Of a stretch of DNA of 64,000 nucleotides, positions 3,299 through 57,218 are shown piece after piece. The notes under the pieces are model-generated. The model was not told the DNA's origin and did no database searches. It saw only the letters and a list, made by a program, of their open reading frames with translations. This stretch comes from Vermamoeba vermiformis. Taxonomy: Eukaryota. How positions within the stretch are numbered: the first letter of the stretch is position 1; every line of letters begins with the position of its first letter. Where the stretch lies: NCBI GenBank assembly GCA_045837725.1, contig JBEWZL010000057.1, forward strand, positions 1 to 64,000, written 5' to 3'. Position numbers and translations under genes: made by a program.

Positions 3299-3429
3299 TA
3301 TATTTGCGGTGTAAATAAAAGTATGTGATTTTGTTCATAAAAAGTTGCACTTTTCAACTGAACTTTCGGCTGACGAGGAGACAGAACCCATTTTTCACGT
3401 TTTCGACACCGTTAAAATATGATCGATTT

Positions 3430-8813: not shown

Positions 8814-8885
8814 TTGCATCGAAGGAAGCTTGTAAGTAATGATTTAATTTATGTACATAAATGTTGCTGCGAGTCGACAAAGGTG

Positions 8886-11375
8886 TCAGGAACAGTTCAC
8901 GTTGCACTTCGCTTTCATCCAATCAGGTACGGGACACCAAAACATGTTTTGATCCGCACGGCACGACACTAGATTCTCTGGGACAACATCCATTATTGCA
9001 GGATCTACCTTGTTATATCCATTTTTGACAATATTTAATCGTTGTATTGTCCTGAGAACCGAAACTGGAAGCGAAAAGACTAAAGAAGAAGTAGATCCAT
9101 CGCCTTCGATGTCGAGATCCGTCAAGTTCTTCATGCTTGCAAGTTTGTCGTCTAATGTGCCATAAAAGGAAAGGTATGCCATGTGCAGTACTTGCAGTGA
9201 GCTGGAAAATGTCGGAAGAAAGCCATTGAGCCTGGTGTTGGACAGGCGCAAGTCAATCAAATTGGGACCCGAAAACGCAGGAATGCGGCCATACAAGTAA
9301 AAGTTGTTTTGAAGTGACACTTTGACAAGCGACGGCAAGGCGATTTCAGGTGGCACGTACGACACATTGGTCTGTTCGAGATTGAGAATTTGCAGCTGTG
9401 TCATGAGCTTTACGTCTGCAGGTACCACCCAGCCAGCAAATGAATTCTGATCGAGCATCAGCTCTACAAGCGATGTCATTCTGAAAATATCTTCGGGCAC
9501 TGTGCCTTGCAATTGATTGTCAGACAAGATAAGTCGCTGTAGTCTGATCGAGGCCAGCGAGGCAGGAATAGTGCCGTTGAGGTGATTCGAAGACAAGTCG
9601 AGGACTTTCAGCTGTGTCAGGCCTGATATGGAGTCTGGAATGGTGCCTCTGAGTCCAAATTGACTCAAATTGAGCTGTTCGACGTGTCTTCGTTGCGTAG
9701 AATTGCTGCACGTGACACCAGACCAGTCGCACATTGGGCTGTCGCTGTCCCAATCACTACTCCAGGACGGTCCATTTGTCGCGTTATATAACTCGATTAG
9801 AATGCGTCGCTCAATCATATTGTCAGGGCTCTGAAGAGGGGAAGGGATACTTGGAGTCGGTGTGAGTACAGCAGTTGGCACTTGTGTTTCGGGTGATGGT
9901 GCACTAGGAACGTGCGACGGACTTGGCGATATTGTTGTTGGACTCGGGCTCGGCGCAGGGGTGAAGTGGATTGGAATATAGTTCAGTCCAATCAGAACTC
10001 CAATCGCTGCAAATGTTGCAATCACGAGGGGTATGAGGTAGCGCAGGTACTTTTTAGACCCTTTGGACTCAACAAAAATGACGTCGTCATTGACTTTTGG
10101 TCCAGATTGAGTGTTTCTCCGTCGGTCATTCTTGGTGAACTCGTTGTACATCAAATCAACCACTTGATGGATTTGATCTGTTTTGGAATTGAGATTGTTG
10201 ATGTCTTTGAAGTTCTGTTTGATCGATTCACTCAGATATGGAATCAATGACTCGTAGTCCACATGCAAGATACCATCGATCAGTTGCACTGCTGAAGGCA
10301 CAACACTTTCAATTTGTTGTGCAATGTACCCAACGAATCGTTTGTTTGTCGTGTTGCTCACTCCTCGTTTGAACTTGTACTCCACGCCATCGATCTTCAT
10401 CAGAACTCCTCGTGGGTCATAGTCTGATAACACAAATGAGCAAACAAAATTGACCAGTCTTGACACATGTCAAAGCAACTGCTTACCATCGACGAGCAAT
10501 CGAATGTCCTCTTTGATGTTGATGTCTGATGCTTTGTAGAAGTTGAGTGCTCTGAAGTTGCCGATCACTTCTGCATTGCCGTTGTACAGCACCATATATT
10601 GCTCGTCGTTATCGTATCTTGTCAGCATGTGTTGCTCATTGGCACTGATGTCTTCATACGGGGACATATTGAGAGCGACTTCATCTGAACTAATGCCACT
10701 ATTGTCGTTATTGCTTGAAGTATAAGTTGTCATAATACTATCGTTTTGATTCGAGGGTGTAAAATCTTCAGGGGAGGCGTCGCCCGAGCCAACATCATTT
10801 GGTCGCCAGAATATTGGTATTAGCGCTGTAAATAAAATTAATAATTATGGCAACAAAATACGCGATTACGATACGGATCAGATCCGTGTCAAAATTACTG
10901 ATCTGTCATAAAGTTGAATCATACCATCGTCGTAGGGAGCTGTATCATCTTCTGCAAAACGTCTCTTTGCTAATAGTAAGCAATTCGATGACGAGCCTTG
11001 ATTAAGGAGAGTGTCAAGCTTGAAACAGCTGACGACAAATCTGATCAGACGTTGTTTTGTTTTACGAAAGTCAAATATTCCACCATTAATTTTAAGTTGT
11101 AATATTAACCCTTCTATTGTCGTTGTTGAAGGTTTTGTTTGAAATCGATATGGATGTCGCTTTGCAAAACTCAAACAATTATCAACCGTCGTTTCTGTTG
11201 TTTCATCGCATAATAAAACATGCACAGAATAAAACCAGCTTTCTTGAGTATCGTTTTGCGTTATTATTACTCCAAAACTCGGTGTTGCGCTTTGTCCGAA
11301 CGTGAATCCACTGACATCCCCTCCTTCAACAGGGATGTACAACTGAAATATTGTCTTCACATGAATTTGCTGCAT
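8886..11375 (-). CDS. Copy D of the S74-TM-LRR family (inverted, intact)
   Basis: Exons 11375-10925, 10825-10487, 10423-8886 join in frame; MQQIHV start resembles copies B/C; YKASDINIKEDIR, GYIAQQ, TM helix, PS/PT stalk, CDWSGVTC cap, LRRs. Confidence 0.85.
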
Positions 11376-37493: not shown

Positions 37494-39027
37494 TTATTCG
37501 TAGCACCTCTTGTACATACAAAGCAGTGCATTTTCAGCTTTGGATCGCAAAGCCCAACTGCGCAGTAATCTGAGGGATTCTGTTGGTGGAGCGACTGGCC
37601 TCAACCATTGCTGCACTTTATCAGCCGTTGCAAGGCTACTATTACTAGCAATTGGTTGAAATTGTTTGGTGAATAAATAGAGCAAGAAGTTGTCGATTAT
37701 ATTGATGTGCACGGTTGGAGCGCTAGATTCGAGTTCGATGAGCTTTGACCAATGCAGTTTTGGGGCTCGATGATGCCCAGCGTGGAAATTATCGTTGAAT
37801 GGCGCTACATAACCGTTCCAATTAGTCGTGCTGCTATCAACTGTGTTTGGATTGGTCGGATCTATCAACGAGTGCCACAGCCACGCACCTCTGCTGATAT
37901 AAAAGCCTGCTGGAGCGTACGTGAAAAATAATGGCACCAACAAGCTCGATTGGACTTTCCATAGGGCTAACAGCACGAGGACGAATACTACTTGCCCGAG
38001 AAACATCTCAGCAAGTGCGATCCGAACACGTGACTTGTGGATCTTGTGAATGAGATAGCGATACACTCCAATGCAAGTCGTGTAGTCTAACCACATGCCA
38101 AACGAATAAACTGAGAACTCGAGAATACTTGAGCGATCGTATTTGGCTGTTGATTGAAAGTCGGATGCGTTGTTGTTCTCTTTGTGATGGATCAGCAAGT
38201 GGTTGGTTTTGTACACGCAAGGAATGTATCCAAAAAGCACAGCGGTGACTTGCAGCACAAAAGAAGAAACTTTGTGCTTGAATGGTGCCAGATGCATGTT
38301 CCAATGAAAGAGCCATTCCATCGGTAAGCCGAACGTCTCTTGATAAATAATGTAGAGTGGTAATACAATAATTGCATTTCCAACTGCGCCGCTGCTGAGC
38401 CATATAAACAGCGCATTTTGAGTGACGAATAGTAGTAAAAGTCCAAAGAAGGGAGCGTCTTGCGGGTTATTGACGAAATAGGTCCACCAAGTAACGTCTA
38501 TGAATAATCATTATTATTAAAGTAAGCCTAATATGTTAAAAATTAAGGTACTTGCCACAGTTTTTAGGATAAAACTTGTTTCGCAACGCCTCCAATACCG
38601 ATCGGTAAGTTTTCGTGCTCCAAAATACAGCAATATAACTCCAAATGCTGCCAGGCCATAGTAATAAAATTGGAAATACCAAGCTAATCACCCATAATGT
38701 ACTTGTTGAAAGCTTACTCACGCTGAAGAATTCTTTACGGATCTGCTTTAAAGAATTCAAGTACAAACCACACACGAACTCTAAAGTTAAGCAAAATAAT
38801 AAATACAATACGGCTAGAGTAATATATACATAATTGAATGCGATCATGATTAGTTGTGTTATCGCCATTGCATTGAGTTGTCAAAAAAACCGCGATCCAA
38901 AGAATACTCCCACGTGAAGCGTTCACAAAGAATATCGCTGCGTAAATACGGACAAAGAATTGAACGCGTTCTCTAGGATTTGAGAAAAGGGACAAAAAAT
39001 TTTAAGTGTCAAAGAATTAAATGACAT
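37494..39027 (-). CDS. Membrane fatty-acid desaturase/hydroxylase-like protein with extra N-terminal TM segments
   Basis: Three His boxes: EWLFHWNMH, HLLIHH, FHAGHH; hydrophobic segments; apparent single-base frameshifts near 39000, 38860 and 38340-38400. Confidence 0.75.
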
Positions 39028-39152: not shown

Positions 39153-39347
39153 ATGGACGTTCAACACCAAGTCGCTCTTCTCGCTCAATCTGCCGCCTGT
39201 TTTGGCTCTGGATGCTGCTGCTCGGGCAGTGGTTGCAATTGCTCGTGCTCAAAGTCCCGTTCAGTGCTGCCAGTCCTTGATACCGACACTGTTCTCCCAT
39301 TCGAAAGCGAGGAACTTACTGAAGAATCGCTCTCCAGCTTTATGTAG
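39153..39347 (+). CDS. Cys/Ser-rich small peptide 1 (64 aa), candidate lanthipeptide precursor
   Basis: MDVQHQVAL...GSGCCCSGSGCNCSCSKSRS...SEELTEESL; paralogous to 39615-39836; AATAAA at 39383. Confidence 0.75.
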   Translation: MDVQHQVALLAQSAACFGSGCCCSGSGCNCSCSKSRSVLPVLDTDTVLPFESEELTEESLSSFM

Positions 39348-39528
39348 GACTATTATAGGCAACTAGGCCTAACTAGTTTTTCAATAAATATATTCAAACG
39401 TAATTTCTGTCATAATACTTGTCGCTCGCACAATTTTTATTTTTTAAACCAGATCTAATTGATGTAAAGAATAAGGTGAGATATAAAATCGAAATTACCT
39501 GCTGAGAATAAACCGTAAGAATAGCGAT

Positions 39529-39534
39529 CACGTG
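39529..39534. promoter_or_regulatory. CACGTG upstream of peptide 2
   Basis: ATCACGTG; CACGTG begins 86 nt before ATG 39615 (same spacing as peptide 1); TAAATA at 39551. Confidence 0.45.
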
Positions 39535-39614
39535 GCTTTGTCAAACACCATAAATACTGAGGTTGTCATTCATTATGTACAAGCTATCAATACACACACA
39601 CATCAAATACTGCA

Positions 39615-39836
39615 ATGGACGTTCAAATTCAACTCGCCCTCACTCCTCAAACCCTCACTCGTACTTTGGGAACTGGATGTGGCTGTTCCGCTAGCGTGGG
39701 TGGAAGCTGTAATTGCTCTTGCTCTAAAGGCCGCTCGCTTTTGCTTGCAAACGGATGTGGCTCCGATGCAGGTATTTACGTCAGTGAAGAACTCAGTGCG
39801 GACTTGATTGCCGAAACTTCCCTATTCTGGGAGTGA
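39615..39836 (+). CDS. Cys/Ser/Thr-rich small peptide 2 (73 aa), candidate lanthipeptide precursor
   Basis: MDVQIQLAL...GTGCGCSASVGGSCNCSCSKGRS...SEELSADLI; AATAAA at 39874. Confidence 0.75.
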   Translation: MDVQIQLALTPQTLTRTLGTGCGCSASVGGSCNCSCSKGRSLLLANGCGSDAGIYVSEELSADLIAETSLFWE

Positions 39837-40426
39837 AACAAATTAAACCCTGTTGTATTCTTTTTCTTTTCTAAATAAAGAATTGGCATTATTTAAAAAA
39901 CCGAGCTTCTCTACGATGATTATTTACTCATATAATTGATCGAACGCACAACGTATGGAAAATCAGTGGGTCGGATCCTTCTGGTACAAACCAGCTCCTT
40001 CATTCTTTACTCGAGAAAAGCGCTACATTCGCAGTTCAAATACTGATAAGAAAGTCGAAGTGCTCAACGATAATCACTCTTACAACCAATCAAGCAAAAT
40101 TCATCGGATCAAGATCTCGGATTTGAACGTCGCGGAGTCCTCTAAAGATGGCTAATACTCATAAGAAACGATAAAGAATTGTATACATTAAAATGTAGTC
40201 AAAAGGAATAAAGACTCGCCCGAGTCTACTTCAGATCCAAAGAATACAAAGTGCATTCTCGCACGTTCTTCGCGTTCACGAATAACAAAATTTCAAAGAA
40301 TGTTTTGTCCGCAGTTACGAAATTTCAGGTTTAACGCGTAATTCTCAGCTCGATGTACGTATTCTTAAAAGTTGTGCGTTTTTTTTAGAGTCTCAGTTCA
40401 TTTTAAATTGTTTTATATTGCACCAC

Positions 40427-43400
40427 ATGACCGAATATCATTTTGTAGTGCATAACCAACCGCAACAACCCGAGCTATTGGCGGTTTTAGAAAGTGGTAT
40501 GAAAACAAAACTAATTTGTTTGAACTAATTCTCTCTAATACGATCTCTTACCTTAAAGTCGAAGCCAATGTTGTTGAAATTGGTGATATTATTTACGCCA
40601 TAGCACCAACGAGCATTGTTGCTCGGATTCAGGATCAGCACGGGGAGATCTTCAATTCTTCAACCTTCCGTTCCCGATGGCCTTCTACTCTGCGTTTAAA
40701 TAATCAATATGCGTCAGTTACGCATGAAAGGCGTGCAAAAGAAACGACTCGAGAATTGATTGAAAGATTTTTTCCCAAATCTGTAAGTTCGATCATTTTG
40801 CCTTAACGCGAGACTAACATTCCTTATAGACTGAGGTTAACGTCGATAACGTTGTCGTCAGTAGCATCACCAAGAACCAAATGACTTGGGGCACGCAGAA
40901 ATTTGAGACTTTGGAGTTTGTCGCAAACTTCGAATCCGCGCTGATTAACATTTTGGTCGAAGATAGCGGCAATAGAAATCACGATACTTTGCACCTATTC
41001 TCTAGATTCGTATCCCCTGATACCCTTTCGTCGATGGCCAGTCGCCTTTCTGGAGCTGGATCAACTGCTGAAATTCCTTTCACCCAAAAACCAGAACTAG
41101 CAAGCGCTACCTTCATCGACCAGTTCGTCAACATTGTTGCACTCAATGGCTCCAAAGTAGCTCTTCATGAAGTGGACAACAACCGTGAGATCTCGTACGC
41201 AGCACTCAACAAGCTCGCGAACAAAATCGCCCACGCCATCATAGAGAAGAGACCAAGAAGCAAGTTGCCTGTTGGAGTATTCATGAATAGATCAGTCAAC
41301 TGTGTTGCTGCAATGATTGGAGTACTCAAGGCTGGATGTGCATACTTACCACTCGATCCATCGTATCCAAAACAAAGACTTGACTCCATGATTGAAACAT
41401 CGAAATGCGAGTTGATTCTTGTTGATGATTCAACGATCACGAGTGCAAGTGATTTGATCCAAGACAAAGCATCCGTCAATGTTGATGAATTATCGACAAT
41501 GTTCAGTGAAGACAATCCAAACGTGCAAGTGTCTTCAGACGATCTAATGTACGTCATCTTCACTTCTGGAAGCACGGGAACATCCAAAGGGAGTGATGGC
41601 TACGCACGCGTCAATGATGAACAGATTGAATTGGATGTTGGACACGTTCAAGGCAGAAGAAAATGAAGTGTTCCTGTTCAAGACCAAACTGTCATTCATC
41701 GATCACATCACGGAGCTGTTAACTGGCTTACTATGTGGAGGTCGAGTTGTAGTGGCATCAGATGACTTGGTGGCCAATGTGGAACGACTGCTCGATGTAC
41801 TTGCCGAACAAGCTGTTACTCGTTTAGTCGTGGTCCCTTCGTACTTGAAAGCTTTGTGCCAATCTTTGCAAATAAGACCTCGCAACTTAGCCCTACGTTA
41901 TTGCTTCACGAGTGGCCAGCGGTTGGATTCATCCACAGCACGAGCAGCGTTGCGAATGCTACCTAGCACGTTGCTTGTGAATCTTTATGGTTCAAGTGAA
42001 GTGGCCGGCGACGTCACCTATGCGATAATTAAACATCCAGCTGACATAACAATTGGTGTTCCGATAAGCAATGCACGTGTTATCCTCGAACCTACCAGTG
42101 ATGGTGAGCCAAATGAAGGCGAGATTCTCGTTGGTGGTGTGCCAATCGTTCGAGACATCGTTGGAGCAAGCAGCGCTAACAAATTCTGCACTATTGACAA
42201 CGTGCGCTACTACAAGACCGGTGACATTGGTAGACGGCTTGAAGATGGGAGAATTGAGTTCGTTGGAAGAATTGACGACCAAGTCAAAATAAGAGGTTTT
42301 CGTGTCGAGCTTGGAGAAGTCGAAGAGTGCACAAGACAAGTGAAGCAAGTTGAAGATTGTGCTGCCGTCTTCGATGAAGTGAAACAGCAGTTGGTGCTCT
42401 TTGTCAAGCCAGAGAACTGTGATATTGAACAGGTGAAGAGTCACATCAAGATTAGTCTTCCGGAGCAATGTAATCCAAGTTTGATTTTGGCAATCGACAA
42501 CATTCCCTTGACACCAAATGGTAAAACAGACCGCTTGAAGTTGAAGCAACGAGTCAACGAAACTCTCAGTGGATTGCAGATCGTCAACAAGCCAACAACT
42601 GCTTTGGAGCAGAGCATTCACGACATTTGGAAGCTAGTGCTTGAACGAGACGTGGATCTTCAAACTGACTTCTTTGCGCTCGGCGGACATTCATTGCATT
42701 CCATTCAAATTCTGTCGCTCATGAAAGCAAATCTCAATTTAGATATCAAAAGCCACGACTTCTTTGGCAACCCTTCAATTAGCCAATTAGTGCAATTCGT
42801 CGAAAATAATCAAGATCAACTCACCAGTCCGATGGCTAATGTGCCAATCCACAACGAGAGCGATGAATATGTTCCGAGCACTCCATTCCAACACCAAATG
42901 TTCTTCGTACAAATGCTAAAGCCTACTTCAAGCGCGCTGAATGTTTGCAGTGCCTTGCATCTCAGGGGACAACTGGACATCGTATTAAACACGGGTCAGG
43001 ATCTCCCTAGTTCAAGTGGTGAATAAAGGGTCTCATGCGACTCTTCGTTCATCAATTTCCAACTCGCCGTGCATCAAACGAATGCCAAAGATCTTGTGGA
43101 CTGCTTGAAACAAGAAGTAAGTCGAGCATTCAACCTCGTCACTGGTCCCTTGTACAACATCGTATTGTTTGAGTGTGGACCTGAAGACCACTGTCTCATG
43201 GTGAATTGCCATCACTCGATCGTTGACGCTTGGTCGATGGAGCTGATAGAGCAGGAGATCGCCTCTCTTTACAACGGAAAAGAGTTGCTACCACTGGACG
43301 AAGAGTTCTCTAACTATGCCCATGCTGAACGAAGTCGTGTTGTTAGTGAAGAGCACATGGAATATTGGCTGCAAGCTATCGAAAAGAACTACGTACGTCG

Positions 43401-46400
43401 TGTGCACGATGAAATCAAATCCACAAGACGGATTCAGCAATACTTCGACTTCGATAAGGTACTTGCACCTATTAATAATAACATCAGTTAATTAATGAGA
43501 ACTTTTTAAACCAGGGTCTTAGCGATTTAGTGCGGAATTACGCTAGAAATCAGCAGTGCACTCCGTCTTGTGTGCTTCTGACTGCCTTTCAAAAACTGCT
43601 CTACGAAAATAACTCACGTGTTGGTCTCTTGGCATATCCTGTCACCAATCGAAATTCTTTGGCGTTGTCTTCAGTGGTTGGCCCAATCTTCAATACAATG
43701 CTGCACCAGTTAAAACAAGTAGACTACACACGCCCGTTTTCCCAGCTGGTTGCGGAGAACTTCAAGCTTTGGAAAGAAGAACTCCGCTACAACACTTTGC
43801 CGCTTGCCACAATTTTGTCGAAATTCCGCGGCAATCAGGGTGACGCACGTTCGCTAGTTGAAGTAATGTTCACGTTTTGGAACGCGAAACAATGCAGCAA
43901 TCTCTTCAATGGGCTTAGCAACAAATACGTGGAGTTTTTCACCGATGATTCACAATTTCCTATCGAAGTGAATTTCACAGAGAGAGACGGAGAGCTGCGT
44001 TGCATGGTTGACTACAATTTCTCCTATCTGGCCATTGACGCTGCACAGTTCAAAGCTCGCTTGACCGAGATTCTAACGCAGGCATTCAATAATAACGAAT
44101 CTCCAGTCGTCAGCAGATCCGTTATTAACAGCCCACCCAAAGTAATCTACGGTGACTCTGTGGCAGTAATGAGGAGATGCCTCCACCAAGCTTTTGAAGA
44201 TCAAGCTGCCGTACACGTAGAAGACATTGCCATTTTTTGTTCGCTGACAAAAATCTCGTACGCGGATCTCAACAAGCTCGCAAACAGAATTGCCCACGCC
44301 ATCATAGAGAAGAGGCCAAGAAGCAAGTCGCCTGTTGGAGTGTTCATGAATAGATCAGTCAACTGCGTTGCTGCAATGATTGGCGTACTCAAGGCTGGAT
44401 GTGCATACTTACCACTCGATCCATCGTATCCAAAACAAAGACTTGACTCCATGATTGCAACGTCAAAATGCGAGTTGATTCTTGTTGATGATTCAACGAT
44501 CACGAGTGCAAGTGATTTGATCCAAGACAAAGCATCCGTCAATGTTGACGAATTATCGACAATGTTCAGTGAAGACAATCCAAACGTGCAAGTGTCTTCA
44601 GACGATCTGATGTACGTCATCTTCACTTCTGGGAGCACGGGAACGCCAAAGGGAGTGATGATTCCTCACTCGAATGTTCTTAATGTCAGTTCGGTACTTC
44701 AACGACAAGCTCCAGATCTGTGCCAAAGACAAGGTGCTCGCACATACTTCATTCAACTTCGACATTTCAGTGCTTGAAATCTGGTGCGCGCTGACAACAG
44801 GAGCGTCAATTGAGCTAATGGAGAAGACGCTTGAGCACGCTGCCTCGTTAGGAGATGAATTGATCACGAAGGGCATTACGGTGGCCCAAGCTACTCCAAG
44901 TCTCTGGAAATTGTCGTTTGCAAGCCCCTGGAAGGCTCCACATACGCGCATTATCGTCGGTGGAGAAGCTCTGACCATTGACGTCGCCCAACAACTGGTC
45001 AAGCGCGCTGGGCGGGTCTTCAACGCCTATGGCCCCACCGAAACAACTATATGGTCAACTTGCAACGAACTGAGTCCAACGCAGGTCCTATCAACATGCT
45101 GCATTGGCAAGCCTATCTGGAATACGCAAGTCACTGTACTTACTAGACTCCACGGACGGGGCCGGCGAAATAGTCATTGCTGGTGACGGAATATTTGGAG
45201 GATACATCAATCAACCTGAAAGAACGAGTGAGAAGACTCTCGTATTAAACAATGCTCGTTTTTACCGAACTGGCGACCGCGGAAGATTGCTGAACGATGG
45301 AAGTATCGAATATATCGGAAGAATTGACGACCAAGTCAAAATAAGAGGTTTTCGTGTCGAGCTTGGAGAAGTCGAAGAGTGCGCAAGACAAGTGAAGCAA
45401 GTTGAAGATTGTGCTGCTGTCTTCGATGAACTGAAACAGCAGTTGGTGCTCTTTGTCAAGCCAGAGAACTGTGATATTGAACAGGTGAAGAGTCACATCA
45501 AGATTAGCCTACCAATGCAATGCGTTCCGAACTTAGTCTTGACGACTACCACAATTCCGTTGACGTTGAACGGCAAAACAAATCGTCTGGAGCTAAAGAA
45601 GCGAGCAAGAGAGGTCCTGGAGCAGCGACAAATCGTCAACAAGCCAATAACTGCCGTAGAACAAAGCATTCACGACATTTGGAAGCACGTCTTCAATAGC
45701 AGCGCAGATATTGACGTCCATACCGACTTCTTTTCGCTTGGCGGCCATTCTCTTCATACAGTTCAGATCGTATCAACAATCGGAGCCAATTTGAACGTGC
45801 AAATTACGCTGCAAGACTTCTTCGGCTGTCCTACAATTAGCCAACTTGCTAAATTAGTAGAAAACGAATTAGCAGCGCAGAAGACGCTGAAATCGTTCGT
45901 CGAGGTGCTCACCGATGACTTGCAATTCACTGTCACGCCTCCAACCACTGTAGACCACAACCAATACCAGGAGGTCGTTCTCTTGACTGGTGCTAGTGGG
46001 TTTGTTGGCATGAAAGTCCTCGAAGCATTGCTCCAAAGACGGAAGGATTGTACCGTCTACTGTTTGTCTCGTCATGTGGCCAAGCTTGTTGCCGAAGTCG
46101 ATTCTCGTCTGGCCGTTTATTCATCAAGAATACGCTGCATCGAAGGAAAGCCTGAATTGCCTTCGCTTGGGCTTGCCAAAGAAAGCTACGCTGATCTGCG
46201 AAACAAAATTACCAAAATCGTTCACTGTGGAGCCGAAGTCAACTTCTTAAAGGATTACCTGCACCTAGCTTCAAACGTAGAGTCGACTAAACACCTGATA
46301 GAATTCGCAGCTGACAAAGGCATACCGCTGATTTACATAAGTACCAACAATCCGTTCTATTTGGATCCAGAAGAGAACATTGCGACATTGAGTAGAGAAC

Positions 46401-46883
46401 TTTCCGAATACTATGGGCTACATTCAAACCAAATTAGTATCGGAATACATAGTACAGAAAAATCTACGACATTACACGATCATCAGGCTTCCATTGGTGT
46501 CTTCAAGATCTCTCACGGACGACTGCAATCAAAACGAACTGTTGATGGCGGTCCTGAAGTCATCCTCTTCGTTGGGAATCTATCCAGACATACAAGCTGA
46601 GATTGACGTGTTGCCGGTAGACATCGTTTGCCGAATATTGGCGGACATCATCGAAAATCCCGAGAAACACGCGAGGCTTTTGTCGATCTCGAACAACGAG
46701 CCACTGACTCTCAAAGATATTGTCGAGCGCGTTGGTCTGCAGCTTAAGTCGTCTTCGTTGGAAAACTGGAAACGAAAGAGCGGTACTGATTTCGCTAAAT
46801 TTCTGGCCATTCTGCACGAAAATGCGTTCCCGCCCAAAGTACGGCACGGCAGGTTTAGATTTGTAGAGGACACGTGGTCTTAG
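40427..46883 (+). CDS. Bimodular NRPS: (unknown N-terminal domain)-A-T-C-A-T-R (terminal thioester reductase)
   Basis: Two A domains (AYLPLDP, YVIFTSGSTG.PKG, Y.TGD, GRIDDQVKIRGFRVELGE, LT.NGK); two T domains (FF.LGGHSL); C domain HHSIVD; reductase LTGASGFVG and GYIQTK. Introns ~40497-40558, 40783-40829, 43459-43514; apparent frameshifts ~41585, 42990, 44690, 45140, 46410. Confidence 0.9.
41190..41598 (+). repeat. Near-identical intragenic duplicate of 44253-44660 (A-domain N-terminal part)
   Basis: DNA almost identical, including synonymous sites, from ATCTCGTACGC to GGAGTGATG. Confidence 0.9.
42265..42455 (+). repeat. Near-identical intragenic duplicate of 45317-45507 (A8 motif region)
   Basis: GGAAGAATTGACGACCAAGTC...CACATCAAGATTAG occurs twice with only a few substitutions. 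Confidence 0.9.
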
Positions 46884-47490
46884 TACTACACCAATCAATC
46901 TTGCTTGAATAAAATTGTGTTTTGTGTGGTAGATCTGAAAAAATATTGTTAGTTAGGAGCACAACGCTTCGAGAACAACTACTAAGCTATTTGAGGAATA
47001 TTTATGTACGAATTGACGGAGGCAGCTGCGCAGGCCTTGTACGTACTTTAGATTTGACAATGTCTCATCAGAATTCTAAATATTAAAATACCGCCAAAAA
47101 ATTATTCAATATAAAATGCAACTTCCTTTATATTGGTTTTTTGCATATTTTCCAAGAGGCACGGTGCTCTATTTTTTTTTTGGTTAAATCTTACCTTTTT
47201 TCCAACAGATCTTGCATTGTCGACAGTTGCTCGTGATATTTGTTACGAAGCGTTGTGTATTGAAACGCGAGCAATAAAATGTAAGTTACATTATACAGAA
47301 TCAAATCTAGAGCTTCCGAATCTCTACTTGGAAAATAAAATTAATAGATTTACCTCAGGTGAAGGTCTAAGCAGAGTCACAACGTGGTGCGTAGCTTTAT
47401 GACCGAGCAAAGTAAGTCAAAATTAAAATTCCAATCGTTTTGTTTTATCTATTCCGGCCCTACAAACAAAACAAAGTCACGTCACCATCT

Positions 47491-48234
47491 CTAAAGCGAC
47501 GAATGTTGCTTGTGTTGAACGTGGCTATCGGGAGAGGTGTTGAGATTTCCAGAATAGTACACCACGTCCACCTTGCTTCCCTTCGACAACGTGACGTTCT
47601 TCGCGCGCACCTCCTTCGCTCTAGTGTTCTCTAGCACGACGTCTCCTTCTGAGATCACACGACTGGCTACTTCAAAGCCCGGAGTACCTGCTTTCGCCTC
47701 GATCTTGATGGAGTGCTGGCCGTACAAGTCTCGCACCTCGCTCTTGGATTCAGAGTCACACTTGAACGAGATGTTTTGACCTGAAAGCACGTTAGTGATC
47801 ATGCGACCAACACCAGTGAAGTTCGTGGCTTCGATATTCTGCGAGACATTAAGAAATCCGATGTGATTGAGTTTCTCAACTTTCACGCTGCCACCGACGG
47901 CGAGCATTCCAGTGACAGAGACGCTGTTGCAATTGACGTTGCCTTCGACAGTAACAGGACCAATCACATCGATAGAATTTGTCAGATCGCCTTTGCAATA
48001 CATTGGGCCGAAGTGAGTGGAGCCAGAGTTGCTTGAGAAAGTTGGTCCGTAGGTCTCAGAACTGCCCGGAATGTACTTGCGAGCGAAGGGAGGAACGTAG
48101 GCTTGCCAGTCTTCGTTGCCGGATTCGGGGCTTGAGGGAGGAGAGCTCGAAGATGACGCATGATTGTGCCAATTGTGAGGGCACTGGCCGTGGCTATGGT
48201 TTGGAATGAACTTTGTCCAGAAGGGTTCAGTCAT
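47491..48234 (-). CDS. Bactofilin-like/polymer-forming beta-helix protein (Bacillus YhbE/YhbF-like C-terminus), intronless
   Basis: V.G.V.V.G-type repeats; C-terminal EGDVVLENTRAKEVRAKNVTLSKGSKVDVVYY. Confidence 0.6.
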   Translation of the reverse strand: MTEPFWTKFIPNHSHGQCPHNWHNHASSSSSPPSSPESGNEDWQAYVPPFARKYIPGSSETYGPTFSSNSGSTHFGPMYCKGDLTNSIDVIGPVTVEGNVNCNSVSVTGMLAVGGSVKVEKLNHIGFLNVSQNIEATNFTGVGRMITNVLSGQNISFKCDSESKSEVRDLYGQHSIKIEAKAGTPGFEVASRVISEGDVVLENTRAKEVRAKNVTLSKGSKVDVVYYSGNLNTSPDSHVQHKQHSSL

Positions 48235-48543
48235 GACTTGCTTGCGTGGTTTTGAGTGCGATAAGATTTAAAATTAATCGATGTGAAGTTTTTTTTGTTT
48301 TTGACGTATTCTTATTCTTAGTAACACAAGCACGTGATTTCTCGCGCACGACGGACATAAGAATACAATCTGCCTATTCTTTAGCCTTTCGCTGAAAATT
48401 TTCACTTGCAGTTCAATTCTTCGTTCCTAACTTTCGAAAGATATTCTTTACCTCAATGCACTATTCTTATGCAATTTACTCTATTCTAATCGTTTATTTA
48501 CTTGAATACCAATACAGTAGTCTCGTCTACTCATTACAAAGAA

Positions 48544-49239
48544 TTAGATTTGTTGTTTGCTCTCCACATCCGAGTGAAATTCGGTCAAATTAGTGGAGTA
48601 CGTGAGTGATTCAACGTGAGAGTGAAATAAGGTAACATTTTCTCCGCGAACACTCTTCGCAAACACATTATGCAGCACTATGTTCTTTCCTACGATGCTG
48701 TTCACTTTAACTTTGGGTGTGTTCTCCTTCGTTTTGATGAGTACTGAGTCTGCGTTGATTTCGCTAATCGACGAGGACGAGTCAATTTTCAATTCAATTG
48801 CCTTCGCTGAGATTGATTTGGCTTGCACATTGCCTACGACAGAGCAGGTTTCGGTTTTAATGTCATTCGCAGTCAAGGCACCAGTGACAGTCAGCTTTGC
48901 TACTACAGAAGATCCAAGGATAGAGAGCGGTCCAGTGACGGTTACCTCTTCAGCTTTTAAGTTGCCGCGGATAGTAGCGCTTCCGTAGACTTTTAACTCG
49001 TTGGATGTGCAGCCATTTTTTACGACCAAGGATCCATAGTGCGTTAGAGATTTCTCAAGAGAGTCAACGACCTTTTCGCCGTAAGTTGCATCAGATTCCC
49101 AGCCATCGAGGTTGTGCCATTGTTGATCCCAGTCTCGTGCCTCGTCATCCAGATCCACAAACTTTGGCACATACTTTCGCCAGTCAAAGCACAGGGTCAT
49201 GCCAATAAGTATAAATATGAACACGATATTCGAGCGCAT
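48544..49239 (-). CDS. Second bactofilin-like beta-helix paralogue, with predicted signal peptide, intronless
   Basis: Hydrophobic start MRSNIVFIFILIGMTLC; LKVYGSATIRGNL, VTVTGPL, LTVTGAL repeats; IVGKNIVLHNVFAKSVRGENVTL...VESLTY. Confidence 0.6.
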   Translation of the reverse strand: MRSNIVFIFILIGMTLCFDWRKYVPKFVDLDDEARDWDQQWHNLDGWESDATYGEKVVDSLEKSLTHYGSLVVKNGCTSNELKVYGSATIRGNLKAEEVTVTGPLSILGSSVVAKLTVTGALTANDIKTETCSVVGNVQAKSISAKAIELKIDSSSSISEINADSVLIKTKENTPKVKVNSIVGKNIVLHNVFAKSVRGENVTLFHSHVESLTYSTNLTEFHSDVESKQQI

Positions 49240-49363: not shown

Positions 49364-52300
49364 ATGGATTTGAAGCAATTCAACGCACTATTTAAAGATA
49401 GGTTACCTTGGGGAAGATCTTTGCTTTACGCCCCTCATTTGTGCAAGAGCTTGGAGGCTATTTTACCCGTCCTCGAGCAAATAAGCAAGATAGATCCTTT
49501 AAAAGTGCTATCGGAACTCGTGAAAGCATGGCTTCAAGAATTGGATTCGTTGATCTTACCAACAATCGTTCACGAAATTAAAATCGCGGATAAAACTGGA
49601 GCTCTTCGCGGTTCTACTTCCGAAGAAAAGTATAAAAGGTAATTAAAATATAAGTAATCTTAAATTTCTAACAAATTACTTTATTCCCGTAGCTTTTTCA
49701 GAGATGCGAATAACAAACTTGCGGCCACTTTCGCTCAACTTCCCAACAAATACCCGATGTTAATGGAATATATTAAGCTTTATGTTTCATCAACCGTCTC
49801 GAATTTGAAGACAGCATTGGAGCGCTTTGTAAAAGACTCCGAAGAATTGCAATCTTTGGTATGTAACGCTGCGAAAATGATCCACTACAAGCCTAATGAA
49901 CAAAATAGGGATCAGTGGTATCGATTCTTCCAACTGATTCTGATAGACATGGAAACGGGCAACAAGTTCTCATTTTCGAGTTCGACAACAGCACGAAACT
50001 TGTGTACAAGCCCTTTGGAGGTACGTTCATGATTGAACTTTGCGGTTTTATGAATTCTCGCCAACAATATTCGCTCAGGGGACAGTGCGCGTGTGTTTAC
50101 GAACTATTGCAAAGCAATGAACTATCCTAAGATTCCTCGCATTGTTGTGCCGAGCAATCAGCTGCTGCCTCAAAAGGTAAGTTAGAACACGATCATTCGA
50201 TCATTAACTAAGAATAATTGCAGTACTATTGGATGGAGTACTTGACCTATGCTCCGTGCCAATCAGAGGTTGAGGTGCGACAGTACTTTCACAACGCTGG
50301 CAAGCTCCTGTGCATTGCAGAGTCGCTCGTTATGTCTGACGGACACAGCGATAACTTGATTGCTAGCGGCAGTGTGCCAGTAGTTGTTGATACGGAGACT
50401 ATATTTAGACCCCAAGTGTCGCGGTTTGAAAATGAACTTGACACTTTTGAGAGTAAGATATTAATTGCAATGGAACGGCAGTATCTAAGCGTTATTTTAA
50501 CAGAGAGATTGAGGATGACACTCTTAGTCCAAGACCCACCAGTTGTGGGTAAGCAGTTCGATGAGTTGCATGCTGCGTTCCAACAGCACGAAGAAGAAAA
50601 GCCAATTAGCGTGTTGTCCTACCATGCAAGTCACGATTTCACAGCTGACATCACACTAGAGACCGAGATGAGCGAGATCGCAACAAACAAAGCTGTACCA
50701 ACTTTGGCGGGAAAAGTCGTGTTCTTGCACGATAATAGTCGATGCATTTATGGAAGGTACGTCACTTTATTTGCACCCTCTTATATTAAACTAATGATGC
50801 CAAACAAAGGATTTATCGAGGCAAAGCAGTTGCTATTAGCCAATAAGGAGGTTATTGCAGCTTTGCTTGAGAACATTCAAACACGAGTAATTCTGCGACC
50901 AACCGCGTTGTACCTGAATTATCTTAGTGCTCTGAAGCAGCCTTGCCACCTTGGTTCTAGGGAAGATGCCGAGCTGTTCTTGAGGTACTGGCGCGACTCG
51001 AAGTCTTTTTAGTTGCTAAATACTATCCGCAGAACTTCGCTCAAACAGCACAACATTGAAGGCGCCAAAAGTTTTGCGAACTACGATGCTCTACTCGATT
51101 CAGAAGTAACTCAGTTATTAAGGCTTGATGTCCCCGCATTCTACGCTTTTGCCGGTGACCTTTCCGTGTGCACTAATACAGAAACGATAGCAAAAGACTT
51201 CTTCTTAGCCCCAACTAGCCTTGATTTTGCAAAGGCATTGCTTGACACCCCATTAAACGACTCGGATCTCAAAGCTTTGCGCGATATCGCGTCAACAAAG
51301 GCTAAAATGACGTTTGAAAGTGACAGTAAGTTGATTTATCCTCGTTAATGATTACTAACGATTAATAAGGTTTCGCAAAATTTGCGGTTGCTTTAGCGTC
51401 TAAGGCGAAGCGTCTTGACGATACAACTACATTCAGGGGTGAGTCTGGAAAGCTTATTGTCTTTGCAGCGCTTGCAAACGAACAAAAATTAATTGGGTAT
51501 GTTTGTAAAAACGAAATTAATAGTTGTGTAACCGTTCGTTTAGTGACGCAGCCAAAATCTTTCACAAAGAAGCTATGTCTCTTATCGATTCCTTGCTCAG
51601 CCAGCTTCAGAATTCTGCCATCCAACCTGATGGAGCCGCTCTTGGTACTTGTTCTGTGTTGTACGCATTGAGCTTGACGGCTTCTACGCTCAAGTGTACC
51701 AACTGATAAGATCGTGCAAGCTGCACTCCGCGTGGAGGAGACTGTCGACGAGTTAGATTTATTGGGTGGCGTAGCAGGAGCGATTTTGTGCCTATTAGCT
51801 ACTGAACATCTCGTTCAGGATACTCCTGAAGGTAATGACTAACACCCGAAATACACGATATATTTACTACCTCATTTCCCTAGGCGCTTTGTTGCTGAGC
51901 AAAGCTGAGAGACTGGCGGATGCAATGTTGAATCAATACTCTAGGTGGAAGAAACTCACGGGAGCGTCACACGGTTATTCTGGATTGATTCTGACGCTGC
52001 ATCGTTTGTACATGAGAACAAGCCGCGAAAAGTACTTAAACTTCTTGATTGAGCTGGTGCATATTGAAGACAAGTTTTACTCCCAAGAGTAAGGACAACG
52101 CGTAGTCTAATAGTACGGCATTAACGCTAGTCTATAGGCACAGAAACTGGTTGGATATGCGCGAAGGTATGGACAACTACGATTGGTACACTTGGTGCAA
52201 CGGGGCACCGGGAATAGCTACAGTTCGAAACTCGATCTACTCTGTGCTGCCAGACACGATGAAAAGCGATTGGTCAGCGACAGCGATGCAAATCTACGAT

Positions 52301-52664
52301 GATATTCTGGCAAGGTTCGAACAAACGTTGCTGATCAATCAATCTTTGTGTTGTGGCTCAGCTGGGTTGATAGAGGCAGTAAGTTACAAATATCAATAGC
52401 GACGTATCATCAGAACTAACGTCGCTCTCTTAGCTGTTGTCATACAAATCGATAGTTAACAAAGAGCGCGTAGAAGAAATTGACGAAAAAGTATCCGGGA
52501 TGACCCGAAGATTGTGCGAAGTTGTTTTGACGAAAGGCACCAAAGGAATTACTGACGATGGAATGTTCCAAGGAACTCTGGGCTTGGCATACATTTTACT
52601 TCGTGCGCAGGGCTACCCGACTTGTATCGTTAACTGGGAGACCCCAACGAGTCAAATTATATAA
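49364..52664 (+). CDS. lanM: Class II lanthipeptide synthetase (LanM: kinase-like dehydratase + LanC-like cyclase), ~11-12 spliceosomal introns
   Basis: Dehydratase: LRGSTSEEKYKSF, DRHGNGQQV, KLVYKP, WMEY, DGHSDNLIA, PVVVDTET, RVILRPTALY, LDVPAFY. Cyclase: LDLLGGVAG, GASHGYSG, NWLDMR, WCNGAPG, SLCCGSAG, GMFQGTLGLAYILLR. GT-AG introns e.g. 49639-49692, 49859-49908, 50021-50078, 50177-50223, 50985-51032, 52090-52137, 52379-52433. Confidence 0.9.
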
Positions 52665-53772: not shown

Positions 53773-56700
53773 ATGCGACTGCTTGGTATTACTTTAATAA
53801 TCATAGCGGCGTCTTTAGTTCGAACTGGTACGTATAACGGAGATCTCGGCCAACCGCTGTCAAATCCGGATTGCTCATGTTTTAAATTTAATCCAGGTGT
53901 TATAAGACATGTTTCACCTAACGGCGTTGATATTAACGATTGTACCGCTGCTTGTCGGTCCTTAACCTACGCAGTTACTCAATCTGCACCTGGTGACACT
54001 ATCTTCCTCGCGAACGGAACGTACAGTGGTTCATCAAACAGAGATTTACTCCTGCAAAATTACCAGATAAATATAATTGGAGAGTCAAAAGCGGGAGTAA
54101 TCATCGATCTGCAAGATCAAGGTAAAAATAACTGATTCTTTTGTGAGTCATGTGTTTGATTCGTTTAAATATAATTGTCATGAATAACAGTACCAATATC
54201 ATGATAGCTGCAATTTAATAGGACTAGTTCAAAACAAGCTGATTATGCAGTTAAAATGATTAGAAAATCTGATTTTTTTTTGTAGGACGAGCGTTTATTC
54301 TCGAAGACAGCAACATTAAGATCGCGTCAATTACGTTCATGAATGGAAATGCTCCGAACTCCTCGCCTCAAAATTATCGCGGCGGTGCTCTCTTGGCCCT
54401 CAATAGCTCCTCGCCGTCATACTTGGAACTCGAAGATGTCACTTTCAACGCGTGTCACGCCTCGAGTCCTGACGGCACTGGCGCAGGTGGAGGTGTGGCT
54501 ACGATCGTAAGTCCTATGAGCACGTGACGGCGAGTACTAACCAGCCAATCACAGCGAGCCACTGTTACAATGCGCCGCGTCGAGTTTGTGGATTGTTATG
54601 CAGGTGTCGCGGGAGGGTTCTACGCTGATAGTGCAACGGCCAACATCACCGACACGCACTTCACGAACTGTTCGAGTGTTTCATTGAACGGTGGTGCAGG
54701 TACAGTATTGGGCCTCATTTTATTCCTTCTCAATACACATTCTAACCAATCACGTGCTTGTAGTGGTGGTGGAGGGTGAGAGCCAGCTGTCGTTAGACCA
54801 ATGCTCGTTTGTGGACTGCAAGAGCGCTAAATTCGGTGGTGCCATTTACGAGTGTACGCAAGTGACTGTAACGAACTTATCATAATGATGATAAGAATAA
54901 TAATGATAAGAAGTAATACTAATCAGTCGCACAGCTGGCACGGCAAACTATTCAGTCACGCGCTCGGTCTTTGAACGCAATCGCGCTGTGTTTGGCGGTG
55001 CAGTATATCACTCTGGCAGTACCAGCACTGAAAGCACGTACCAGCAATGCGACTTTATCGGCAATGTGGCGACTGAAGGTGGTGGCGCGGTGGCTGCAAC
55101 AGCGAATTCAAAGCCCACGTACGACTACTGCAACTTTTACAACAACTCTGCACCGACAGGCGGGGCCATTAATGCTCTCGCTACGAATGGCGTGACCATT
55201 ACACACTGCGCGTTCAAATACAATCAAGTTACAGTGCAAGGCAGCGCCATTAATTTTGAAGGTCCAGCGGTGGTCCTGGACAATCTCTTCAAGGAAAACT
55301 TTTCGAACAAAGGCACCTTGTCATTCTCCGTCTCTTTATCCATGGCCAGCACATTCGTTGGCAACGCTTTTACGGGCAATGTAGCTACACTAGGAGCTGC
55401 CTTGTATGTCGAGACCGATGGCAATGTAGTGTAAGTCAAGTATTGTATCTATTTAGTCTGCTCACTTTTACTCTTCCAGACCGTGGGCCTTCGTCAACAG
55501 CACATTTGACAGCAATGTGGCCACGTCCGGAGGAGCTGTCCTGATCTCGGGAGCTAAAGCTACTTTCGACGGCGCTACATTCCATGCTAATTCCGCTGAT
55601 GAGTAAGTGCTGCATGTGGGTGACATTAGACTGATCAAGGTTGACAGTGGAGGTGCTGTTAAACTAGAGAACGGTGCTGTAGTGTCATTCACTGCTGTGA
55701 CGTTTGACAGCAATGTGGCGCAGACTCTGGGCGGTGCCATCAATCAAGACACCAGCACATTGATTCTGAGCGACAGTGCGATGACATTCAACCGCGCTAA
55801 GAACGGAGGTGGCTTGGCTGTTGCAGGTCCGACATGTCCCTCGTTGACTAGCGTGACCATACAGTCCAACAGTGCTGTCGAGTGTTGTGGGGCCGTGTTC
55901 TTGAGGGACTTGACGTGCTCATTCGAAACATTTTGCACCAACTGCACACTGACAGCGAACACAGTGGAGACTTGCGGACTGATGTGCACTTGCGAGCAAG
56001 GTCCTGTCACGAGTACGTCTAACTCAATTTACTTTCAATCGATTGAGCTCATACTGTTCATATTGCCAGACACAGCCTGTCCTCCATCAGTGAACGGTCC
56101 TAGTGCCGAAGCGAATGGAGGGTCTTCGAGTGACGTACCAATCAGCACTGTAGTTCCTGCTGTCGTAGTCCCGGTTGTCGTGGTGGCTGTGGGAATATTT
56201 TTGCTCATTTTCTTTATTAAGAAAAAGAAATCAGCCCAAACTGTCACTACCTCCATTGACATGCAGAATTTGACTGGTGAAGACAGATTGCATGTGCCGT
56301 ACAAAGAACTCAAGTTCAACAAAGAGATTGGCTCGGGCAGCTTTGGCAAAGTGTTCATTGGAGGTAAGGCAGATCTGGCACCATTTTAAGTTTTCAGCGT
56401 CTAACGGTGCTGCAAATAGAGTGGCAAAAAACTGAAGTGGCGCTCAAACTGAACACTTCTGGCACCTCGCAAGAGTTCCTTAGCGAGGCCAAGTTGATGA
56501 TGTAAGGCATTGCCTCTCTGCATCTTTTGTTCTAACTGACTGATAGTGCGCTGCGTCCTCACCCGAACATTGTTCAATTCTTGGGCCTGTCAACTGACGG
56601 TCCTTATCCCGTGATGATCATTGAGTACTGCGACGAAGGCAGTCTCGACAATCTGTTGTTCGACACCGAGAGCAATATTCCTCTCGAGAGACAGCTGGCC

Positions 56701-57218
56701 ATGATCAGTGCTGTCGCTAAGGGCATGTACCACTTGCACAGCAACAATATTATTCACAGAGATTTGGCCGCTAGAAATATTCTCGTAAGTCCATTGATTA
56801 ATTGGTTTGACATCACACTCACGACTCTCAGATATCAAAAGGCACGCTTAAAATATCCGATTTTGGCATGTCACGCACACTGCAGAACATGGACACGGGC
56901 ACGACCAAGACGGACATTGGTCCCGTGCGATGGATGGCGCCTGAGTCCCTCAAGAACCGCTCCTACAGCAAGAGTTCTGACGTGTGGTCGTTCGGTATTT
57001 TAGTTTACGAAATTTCAGCGAGACAAGAGCCGCACATTGCTGAAGACTTACTCACCATTGCACCGAAGATCCGCGACGAGGGGTTGACTCCTCCGTTGCC
57101 TGCAGACACGGATCCGTTCTTGGCAGATCTGATGAAACGGTGCTGGAATTTCAATCCTGAGGCTCGTCCGTCCTTTGGAGACATTTGCGATTTGTTGCAG
57201 ACTCGTCTCCGAAATTAA
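53773..57218 (+). CDS. Receptor tyrosine-kinase-like protein with pectin-lyase/Pmp-like beta-helix ectodomain
   Basis: Signal peptide; GDTIFLANGTY; repeated FxxN...GGA(I/V); TM VVPAVVVPVVVVAVGIFLLIFFI followed by KKKK; IGSGSFGKV, VALK, HRDLAARN, DFG, GPVRWMAPE, SDVWSFG. Confidence 0.88.

What the first reader, a model, noticed from the sequence alone, without database searches (positions are those of the whole stretch)
39153..39836. Two paralogous precursor-like peptides with the LanA-leader-like 'SEEL' motif after the core
Seen: both share MDVQxQxAL, a core G(S/T)GCxCS..G.CNCSCSK, a basic K-x-R-S-x-L junction and an acidic tail SEEL(T/S) (SEELTEESL; SEELSADLI). Established: class II leaders (ProcA/Nif11 and lacticin-481 types) carry an ELSxEEL-like recognition helix before the core and end in a double-Gly site. 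Inference: here the recognition element may be a C-terminal follower, with KxR as a cleavage point, which would be an unusual layout. Alternative: the core resembles fungal Cu-metallothionein (Neurospora GDCGCSGASSCNC...), so these could be metal-binding peptides.
Basis: partly seen in the sequence, partly recalled or inferred. Interest (0 to 1): 0.85.

Follow-up and report, generated by a model that had tools for sequence, protein, structure and literature searches.

The report
Candidate lanthipeptide precursors in a eukaryote
Two small cysteine-rich genes of a microbial eukaryote lie near an intron-containing copy of a bacterial-type peptide ring-forming enzyme (LanM) and are probably its substrates, a kind of pathway so far described only in bacteria and archaea.

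Summary
A (39153-39347, 64 aa) and B (39615-39836, 73 aa) are real paralogous genes: silent sites are saturated (pS 0.76, pN 0.31), and both share a promoter motif at -87 and a polyadenylation signal. They are the genome's only two copies. Its single lanM lies 9.5 kb away, has 12 modelled GT-AG introns (5 seen skipped in a public run), and keeps the dehydratase and Cys3-zinc cyclase motifs. No canonical LanA was found. The enzyme groups with a dehydratase-only clade rich in Chlamydiae, whose precursors also run leader-core-follower, though without detectable homology to A/B (88, 106). Best reading (0.6): A and B are three-part LanM substrates of a eukaryotic class II lanthipeptide pathway. That the SEEL tail is the recognition element is only weakly supported: A's tail beats shuffles, B's does not, and both score below true leaders. 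Metallothionein remains possible (0.2). Modification, binding and expression of A/B are untested.

The parts
39153..39347 (+). Peptide gene A, 64 aa: N-terminal part (1-17), Cys/Ser core (18-34), K-S-R junction, acidic tail
   Evidence: unchanged in run X1
39615..39836 (+). Peptide gene B, 73 aa: N-terminal part (1-18), Cys/Ser/Thr core (19-38), K-G-R junction, tail
39204..39254 (+). Putative core of A (G18-K34): 6 Cys, 5 Ser
   Evidence: read from the translation; boundaries inferred
39669..39728 (+). Putative core of B (G19-K38): 5 Cys, 6 Ser/Thr
   Evidence: read from the translation; boundaries inferred
39306..39344 (+). SEEL tail of A; hydrophobic residues L55, L60, F63 at i, i+5, i+8 as in LanA leader helices; the ORF stops where the double Gly would come
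39783..39833 (+). SEEL tail of B; only the first five residues fit the leader helix
39065..39072 (+). ATCACGTG (E-box) upstream of A; its TCACGTG starts 87 nt before the ATG
39527..39534 (+). ATCACGTG upstream of B, same distance
39383..39388 (+). AATAAA after A
39874..39879 (+). AATAAA after B
49364..52664 (+). lanM: class II lanthipeptide synthetase, model of 896 aa, 12 GT-AG introns of 44-58 nt, DUF4135 dehydratase plus LanC cyclase with WCxG and CCG. Two one-base frame breaks in this assembly (near 50737 and 51698) that run X1 does not share
40426..46883 (+). Two-module NRPS (A-T-C-A-T-reductase) between the peptides and lanM; link to the peptides unknown; start inferred
   Evidence: four frame breaks absent from run X1
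37494..38868 (-). Fatty-acid desaturase family gene, divergent from A (285 bp between the presumed starts); 5' end inferred
47491..49239 (-). Two paralogous-looking genes with weak bactofilin-type hits (E 0.018 and 1.5, under the cut-off); the second is divergent from lanM

Best explanation
A and B are ribosomal precursor peptides for the neighbouring LanM in a small secondary-metabolism cluster of a microbial eukaryote (an amoeba-like protist is my inference). Shown: two constrained, co-regulated genes; one spliced lanM with complete catalytic motifs; phylogenetic placement beside a bacterial clade with three-part precursors. Inferred from established class II chemistry: in the cytosol (no signal peptide by eye) the dehydratase phosphorylates and eliminates Ser/Thr of the 17-20-residue core to Dha/Dhb, and the Cys3-zinc cyclase adds the 5-6 core Cys to them, giving up to about five thioether rings. 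Inferred and weaker: the N-terminal MDVQxQxAL and/or the acidic tail dock the peptide on LanM (my split within this reading: N-terminus alone 0.4, both 0.35, tail mainly 0.25); host proteases then trim both ends, the C-terminal cut at or near K-x-R; the product serves in defence against ingested or intracellular bacteria.
For: One PF13575 locus in 43 Mb, 9.5-10.2 kb from the only two family members; chance of that distance for one given family 5.5e-4. In 400 kb of background, 13 of 1204 small ORFs have such a Cys/Ser core and 0 of those 13 have AATAAA within 80 nt of the stop; of the 4 such ORFs in the window only A and B do. lanM is transcribed and spliced in run X1: 5 of the 12 modelled introns appear among the listed joints, 15 joints were not shown. 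The D-H-N and D-x-E residues align with CylM 347/349/352/364/366 (their catalytic role is recalled); R-x5-T, GxxHG, WCxG and CCG are present. CCG marks ProcM-type, substrate-tolerant LanMs whose precursors may lie apart (PMC10027976 passages; PMC11251773 passages). No NHLP or Nif11 precursor over cut-off, no YcaO, no chlamydial-type precursor found in the genome. The dehydratase falls with the dehydratase-only clade (100/100), and 11 of 13 loci of that clade carry a short-leader / central Cys-Thr core / conserved-tail peptide. Cores hold 5-6 Ser/Thr and 5-6 Cys, and position 19/20 swaps Ser for Thr.
Against: A and B have no relative anywhere searched (0 of 8 candidates; 0 of 325 and 0 of 76 stretches), so co-occurrence with lanM could not be tested. 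They show no homology to the clade's own precursors (hhalign probability 0.5%) or to any LanA model. An NRPS and two other genes lie between them and lanM. The lanM upstream region lacks the CACGTG motif that A and B share, and that motif is common in the genome (0.6 per kb). No protease or transporter was found among the 40 ORFs scanned, 38 of them from the 79 ORFs of >=100 aa. No double-Gly site. The X1 contig over A/B is unstranded, at about the depth of its neighbours (41), so their expression is not shown; RNA runs X21 and X23 gave 4 partial and 0 reads and test nothing. By raw ORF count (13 per 400 kb) one Cys/Ser-rich ORF near lanM is not rare.
Confidence: 0.6

Rival explanations
1. A and B are metallothionein-like metal buffers (or precursors trimmed to a short Cu/Zn-binding core) that lie near lanM by chance.
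For: CxC and CC motifs with Ser, Gly and Lys around them, as in metallothioneins (PMC1808422 passages). A 17-20-residue core with 5-6 Cys is near the size of the Neurospora copper metallothionein (recalled; one search shows that protein only as a reference title). Tandem, intronless, co-regulated copies fit inducible stress genes.
Against: Cys is 10.9% and 8.2% and each peptide has 3 aromatic residues; the paper gives 18-23 Cys and a lack of aromatics as typical and used >25% Cys to define its GenBank set. No Pfam or NCBIfam family at E<=10; the 20-residue core of B matches 0 PDB sequences at E<=10 and A matches no metallothionein. No TGCRCNC element on either strand between 37000 and 40700 (that motif is recalled from animals and may not apply). 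The Cys-free ends are conserved, which a pure chelator does not need.
Confidence: 0.2
2. A and B belong to the NRPS/desaturase unit or are disulfide-bonded small proteins of another role; LanM acts on substrates not recognised here.
For: A shares a 285-bp divergent promoter region with the desaturase gene and B ends 590 bp before the presumed NRPS start. CCG-type LanMs accept scattered substrates. Genome searches go exon by exon and can miss a spliced precursor (caveat).
Against: No role for such peptides in NRPS pathways is known to me (own knowledge). No signal peptide by eye for disulfide formation; the Cys count in the core of B is odd (5). The only PDB matches of A are two non-significant Cys-rich hits (E 0.27, 0.28).
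Confidence: 0.2

Closest known systems
Class II lanthipeptides with CCG-type LanM (ProcM/prochlorosins, SyncM)
   Same: Two-domain LanM (DUF4135 + LanC; best solved relatives LicM2 and CylM), CCG zinc motif, several Ser/Thr- and Cys-rich candidate precursors for one enzyme.
   Different: Eukaryotic host, 12 introns, eukaryotic promoter and polyA signals; no Nif11/NHLP leader, no double Gly, core in the middle with a 26-35-residue tail; no peptidase-transporter nearby. A tree joining it to three NHLP-type chlamydial LanMs is rejected (p-AU 0.0006).
Dehydratase-only DUF4135 loci of environmental Chlamydiae and others (L028-L034, L111, L125, L139, L144, L150, L155; I found no paper on them in one search)
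   Same: Nearest clade of the dehydratase domain; precursors of 65-80 aa with short leader, central Cys/Thr core and conserved C-terminal follower.
   Different: They lack a LanC in the fetched flanks (0 of 13), usually have an ABC transporter next door (Pfam-checked in 3), and their peptides are not detectably homologous to A/B.
P0069 (1523 aa, one unnamed assembly record): DUF4135 + LanC (CCG) + beta-lactamase-family hydrolase
   Different: About 30% identity; fused hydrolase; host and precursors unknown (no close prokaryotic locus: 1 of 14 stretches, 21% identity). The tree tool warns that the pairing joins two long branches.
Follower-peptide RiPPs: bottromycin; fungal MSDIN/amatoxin precursors
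   Same: Core followed by a C-terminal sequence; MSDIN precursors have a short leader, core and follower in a eukaryote (passages).
   Different: Other chemistry (YcaO macroamidine; POPB macrocyclisation). No YcaO found here.
Eukaryotic LanCL proteins
   Same: LanC fold; this genome has an ordinary one on contig C266.
   Different: LanCLs are described as unassociated with dehydratases or lanthipeptides (PMC11251773 passage); the window enzyme is a bacterial-type LanM fusion.

Membership tests
LanM (class II lanthipeptide synthetase) | N-terminal DUF4135 dehydratase fused to a LanC-like cyclase | tested here: met
   PF13575 and PF05147 on successive exons; TIGR03897 hits on two pieces, each under the whole-protein cut-off; one 896-aa model
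LanM (class II lanthipeptide synthetase) | Kinase/lyase residues and zinc ligands conserved | tested here: met
   D-H-N and D-x-E align with CylM and LicM2; KLVYKP, RPTxxY, GxxHG, WCxG, CCG present; functional roles of the dehydratase residues recalled
LanM (class II lanthipeptide synthetase) | Intact, expressed gene | tested here: inconclusive
   Spliced contigs in run X1; the extra base at 51698 is missing in depth 24.2 of 33.5; both X1 versions near 50737 and P0003 are in frame. The window assembly itself has two breaks; protein not shown
Class II LanA precursor | N-terminal leader with ELxxxEL helix ending in double Gly (Nif11, NHLP or lacticin type) | tested here: not met
   No Pfam/NCBIfam leader model at E<=10; best leader-helix score lies at the C-terminus
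Class II LanA precursor | C-terminal core | tested here: not met
   The Cys/Ser cluster is central, followed by 30 (A) and 35 (B) residues
Class II LanA precursor | [quoted passage not shown] | tested here: met
   A 6 Cys + 5 Ser in 17 aa; B 5 Cys + 6 Ser/Thr in 20 aa
Class II LanA precursor | Encoded near lanM | tested here: met
   9.5-10.2 kb, three genes between
Class II LanA precursor | Dehydrated and cyclised by the LanM | not testable with these tools
   needs biochemistry
LanA leader helix placed as follower | Tail scores like true leader helices | tested here: inconclusive
   A: 13 of 3000, 4 and 6 of 2000 shuffles reach its score, yet it is under the 5th percentile of true leaders; B: 398 of 3000, 574 and 334 of 2000. 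A first matrix from 8 windows gave 1060 and 3073 of 5000
Metallothionein | High Cys content over the whole chain, few or no aromatics | tested here: not met
   10.9% and 8.2% Cys, 3 aromatics each against the criteria in PMC1808422
Metallothionein | CxC / CC motifs | tested here: met
Metallothionein | Match to a described MT family or structure | tested here: not met
   HMMER is weak on short Cys-rich queries
Metallothionein | Metal induction and metal-thiolate clusters | not testable with these tools
   no usable expression data

The most novel reading that the evidence does not exclude
A eukaryote runs its own class II lanthipeptide pathway, domesticated from a bacterial (Chlamydiae-associated) lineage, and the acidic ELxxxxL helix that normally precedes the core has been placed behind it and acts as the LanM recognition element, released by a cut at K-x-R. 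P0069 would be a second member with the trimming hydrolase fused on.
Probability: 0.2. Interest if true: 0.92.

Novelty: new variant of a known kind. Interest (0 to 1): 0.76.

Why it matters
Surveys place lanthipeptide clusters in bacteria and a few archaea (PMC7268733 passage; it mined prokaryotic genomes only) and describe eukaryotic LanC proteins as having no dehydratase or peptide partner (PMC11251773 passage). An intron-bearing, spliced LanM is therefore surprising by itself, whatever A and B turn out to be. If A and B are its substrates, this is a native eukaryotic lanthipeptide pathway, with a precursor layout that leader-based mining tools would miss. It makes two questions directly testable with three genes: can a LanM read a follower, and do protists make thioether peptides against the bacteria they eat or host. 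An enzyme evolved for a eukaryotic cytosol and a free N-terminal region would also interest peptide engineers.

Tried and rejected
Relatives of A/B: none in the protein collection (0 of 8 candidates), metagenome contigs (0 of 325), prokaryote genomes (0 of 76), or 6894 small ORFs of 160 lanM loci (best E 0.011). Atlas: best score 0.78 to a radical-SAM Cys-rich RiPP family, under the tool's 0.9 mark, for B; nothing for A. PDB: designed Pizza repeats for the A/B profile are summed weak repeats with no passing stretch, rejected. Homology to the chlamydial-clade precursors rejected. First leader matrix (8 windows) showed nothing; later matrices were trained on windows picked by an ELxxxEL-like pattern, so they test likeness to that motif only. 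Assembly artefact or shadow ORF: rejected. Bacterial contamination: rejected by spliced introns and eukaryotic neighbours. lanM as pseudogene: disfavoured, breaks absent from X1; none of the alternative introns listed across the 51698 break looked convincing. Other eukaryotic lanM loci: none recognised among 80 metagenome loci (best 50% identity); none in viral contigs (0 of 29); one weak phage record. A hydrolase like P0069's C-terminal domain: none in the window, 15 matches elsewhere in the genome, none on C57. Earlier findings: five look-ups returned nothing. My notebook says 13 introns; the count is 12.

Full report
1. Observation. A (39153-39347, 64 aa) and B (39615-39836, 73 aa) exist as described and align at 46% identity with all named motifs invariant. 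Each finds only the other in the 43.3 Mb, 309-contig genome; a pattern for the N-terminus hits 2 places against 0 for its control. They are genes, not shadow frames: 18 of 29 codons with the same residue differ silently, pS is 0.76 and pN 0.31 over 63 aligned codons. Outside the ORFs the two loci share little except TCACGTG 87 nt before each ATG, a TAAATA after it, and AATAAA 36-38 nt after each stop. A 1215-nt contig of run X1 covers both; its gaps and a replaced 65-nt block fall outside the ORFs, A is unchanged and B differs at one base at most.

2. Host and neighbourhood. The window is eukaryotic: fragmented ORFs, a P-type ATPase, LRR proteins, a tyrosine-kinase-like domain and nuclear protein Es2. 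'Amoeba-like protist' is my inference from gene content and short introns; I did not establish the taxon. Order: desaturase-family gene (minus), A, B, a two-module NRPS with terminal reductase, two minus-strand genes with weak bactofilin-type hits, then lanM. No protease or transporter was seen among the 40 ORFs scanned (38 of the 79 ORFs of at least 100 aa, plus A and B).

3. The lanM gene. PF13575 matches one place in the genome; PF05147 matches this gene and an ordinary LanCL on C266. The gene model runs 49364-52664 with 12 GT-AG introns of 44-58 nt and gives 896 residues without a stop, apart from two one-base breaks. Run X1, recorded as probable DNA, behaves as RNA: its contigs skip 5 of the 12 introns among the rows listed (15 joints not shown). 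It lacks the extra base at 51698 in depth 24.2 of 33.5, has two in-frame versions near 50737, and lacks four single bases at the NRPS frame breaks; protein P0003 reads through in frame. I take the breaks as assembly errors, though an allele cannot be excluded at 51698. Exon 5 aligns to LicM2 (E 1.6e-9) and CylM (E 7.4e-8) with D, H, N, D, E at CylM 347, 349, 352, 364, 366; their catalytic role is recalled. The cyclase has GxxHG, WCxG and CCG. CCG marks substrate-tolerant LanMs such as ProcM (PMC10027976, passages); it is not rare among the session's hits (108 CCG, 64 CHG of 193 long proteins).

4. Origin. In a 71-row quick tree (71 of 139 candidate domains) and a 25-row careful tree the dehydratase pairs with P0069 (99/96; flagged as a meeting of long branches) and the pair joins a clade of roughly 500-residue dehydratase-only proteins (100/100) whose named members are mostly environmental Chlamydiae. 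Holding it with three full-length, NHLP-leader chlamydial LanMs is rejected (p-AU 0.0006). P0069 is a LanM with CCG and a fused beta-lactamase-family domain, known from one unnamed record, with no close prokaryotic locus; that it is eukaryotic is a guess. Transfer from bacteria is inferred; the donor is not shown, as the trees are rooted only at the midpoint.

5. The sister clade uses three-part precursors. Of 13 dehydratase-only loci, 11 carry a 65-87-residue ORF with a short leader, a central core (often KCCATGTC-like) and a conserved tail ending in (Y/F)GxL; 8 were found by pattern and 3 by eye; the other 2 loci start at or near the enzyme. None of the 13 has a LanC in its flanks. This shows that a central core with a follower is normal in this enzyme lineage, which favours A/B as substrates. 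It is an analogy of layout: profile comparison finds no homology (probability 0.5%).

6. Is there another substrate? No NHLP or Nif11 match over cut-off, no YcaO, no match to one chlamydial-type precursor. These searches can miss spliced or divergent genes. For one given family the chance of lying this near lanM is 5.5e-4. In 40 background stretches (400 kb) 13 of 1204 small ORFs pass a crude Cys/Ser-core filter, 0 of 13 with a polyA signal; so gene-like candidates are rare, but by raw count one such ORF near lanM would not be.

7. The SEEL tail. A's tail has the leader-helix spacing (L55, L60, F63) and ends where the double Gly would be, but has Ser at the position of the class II (E/D-8)(L/M-7) motif (PMC7268733, passage). 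A matrix from 24 leader windows gave A 13 of 3000 shuffles and second rank among 199 small window ORFs, B 398 of 3000; with 37 windows from 30 of 160 loci A gave 4 and 6 of 2000, B 574 and 334, and A stayed below the 5th percentile of true leaders. A first matrix from 8 windows showed nothing. In DprM two leader glutamates near the C-terminal end of the leader matter for activity, but the structured N-terminal part is needed as well (PMC12537861, passages and first part of section 10). So an acidic helix can be a LanM contact, and the two invariant Glu here are candidates, but the equally conserved MDVQxQxAL is as likely a handle. No complex model is available; binding is open. K-x-R is conserved but is not a canonical kexin site (own knowledge), and the peptides show no signal sequence.

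8. Metallothionein. The cores have CxC motifs, but whole-chain Cys is 10.9% and 8.2% with three aromatics each, against 18-23 Cys and few aromatics as typical (PMC1808422, passages). No family or structure match supports it. Expression data that could decide were not obtained: X21 and X23 do not hold the locus and X1's contig has no strand.

9. Mechanism, steps marked. Shown: genes, shared promoter, spliced lanM with its motifs, placement in the tree. From established class II chemistry: ATP-dependent dehydration of core Ser/Thr, zinc-dependent Cys addition, up to about five rings. Inferred: A/B are the substrates (0.6); docking through the N-terminus, the tail or both; trimming at both ends by host proteases; defensive role.

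10. Literature. Ten full-text searches listed no paper on a native eukaryotic LanM, on a LanM reading a follower, or on the dehydratase-only chlamydial loci; the library lacks most subscription papers, and for broad searches only the top 10-20 titles were seen. Seen as passages only: PMC11251773 (eukaryotic LanCs lack dehydratase and peptide partners), PMC7268733, PMC10885120 (bottromycin follower), PMC6514808 (C-terminal recognition sequences in eukaryotic RiPPs), PMC10676384, PMC11264318, PMC11189026; nothing of use in PMC12328550, PMC9233826 and PMC6337107. No supplements were read; those of PMC11251773 and PMC10676384 could list eukaryotic or chlamydial DUF4135 proteins.

11. Verdict. The enzyme is a LanM by the sequence tests run. 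A and B fail two defining features of class II LanA precursors (leader first, core last), so I do not file them as members; they most likely work like LanA precursors with an added follower. New variant of a known kind; interest 0.76, carried mainly by the spliced eukaryotic lanM.

Noticed in passing
L028:1581-5138, L029:5749-9244, L031:5804-9440, L032:6256-9683, L033:5796-9365, L034, L111, L125, L139, L144, L150: Compact bacterial system, mostly environmental Chlamydiae: dehydratase-only DUF4135 protein, usually an ABC transporter, and a leader-core-follower peptide with a conserved (Y/F)GxL tail; no LanC in 13 of 13 loci. Not found in print by one search; worth its own study.
   Followed up: partly
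window 41672-47195, minus strand: Run X1 shows a multi-exon transcript antisense to the NRPS: listed joints read CT..AC on the + strand with good donors and branch sites on the minus strand; the spliced form has no ORF over 187 codons.
   Followed up: partly
P0069 (protein collection): LanM fused to a C-terminal beta-lactamase-family serine hydrolase, sister to the window enzyme; possible built-in processing protease.
   Followed up: partly
window 40426-46883: Largely intron-poor two-module NRPS with terminal reductase beside a desaturase; frame breaks at 41583, 44686, 45142, 46392 are absent from run X1 and look like assembly errors.
   Followed up: partly
window 47491-49239: Two minus-strand genes with weak bactofilin-type hits; the second begins with a hydrophobic, signal-like stretch and is 125 bp from the lanM start.
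   Followed up: no
window 1828-10466: Several LRR proteins, three ORFs also with a Peptidase_S74 (endosialidase chaperone) domain, near the contig start.
   Followed up: no
window 53773-57003: Pectin-lyase/polymorphic-membrane-protein repeats followed by a transmembrane-like segment and a tyrosine-kinase-like domain: probable receptor kinase.
   Followed up: no
L045:728-9360, L054, L059, L099: Full-length LanM clusters with several NHLP-leader precursors in Chlamydiae genomes, two of them beside further presumed RiPP-modifying genes (not scanned).
   Followed up: no
P0076, P0183, P0188, P0257: LanM proteins fused to a squalene-hopene-cyclase-like, FAD-synthetase-like or acetyltransferase domain.
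   Followed up: no
OR846606.1:31764-31958: An unannotated Enterococcus phage record holds a LanM-like stretch (35% identity, E 7e-7); may be host DNA.
   Followed up: no
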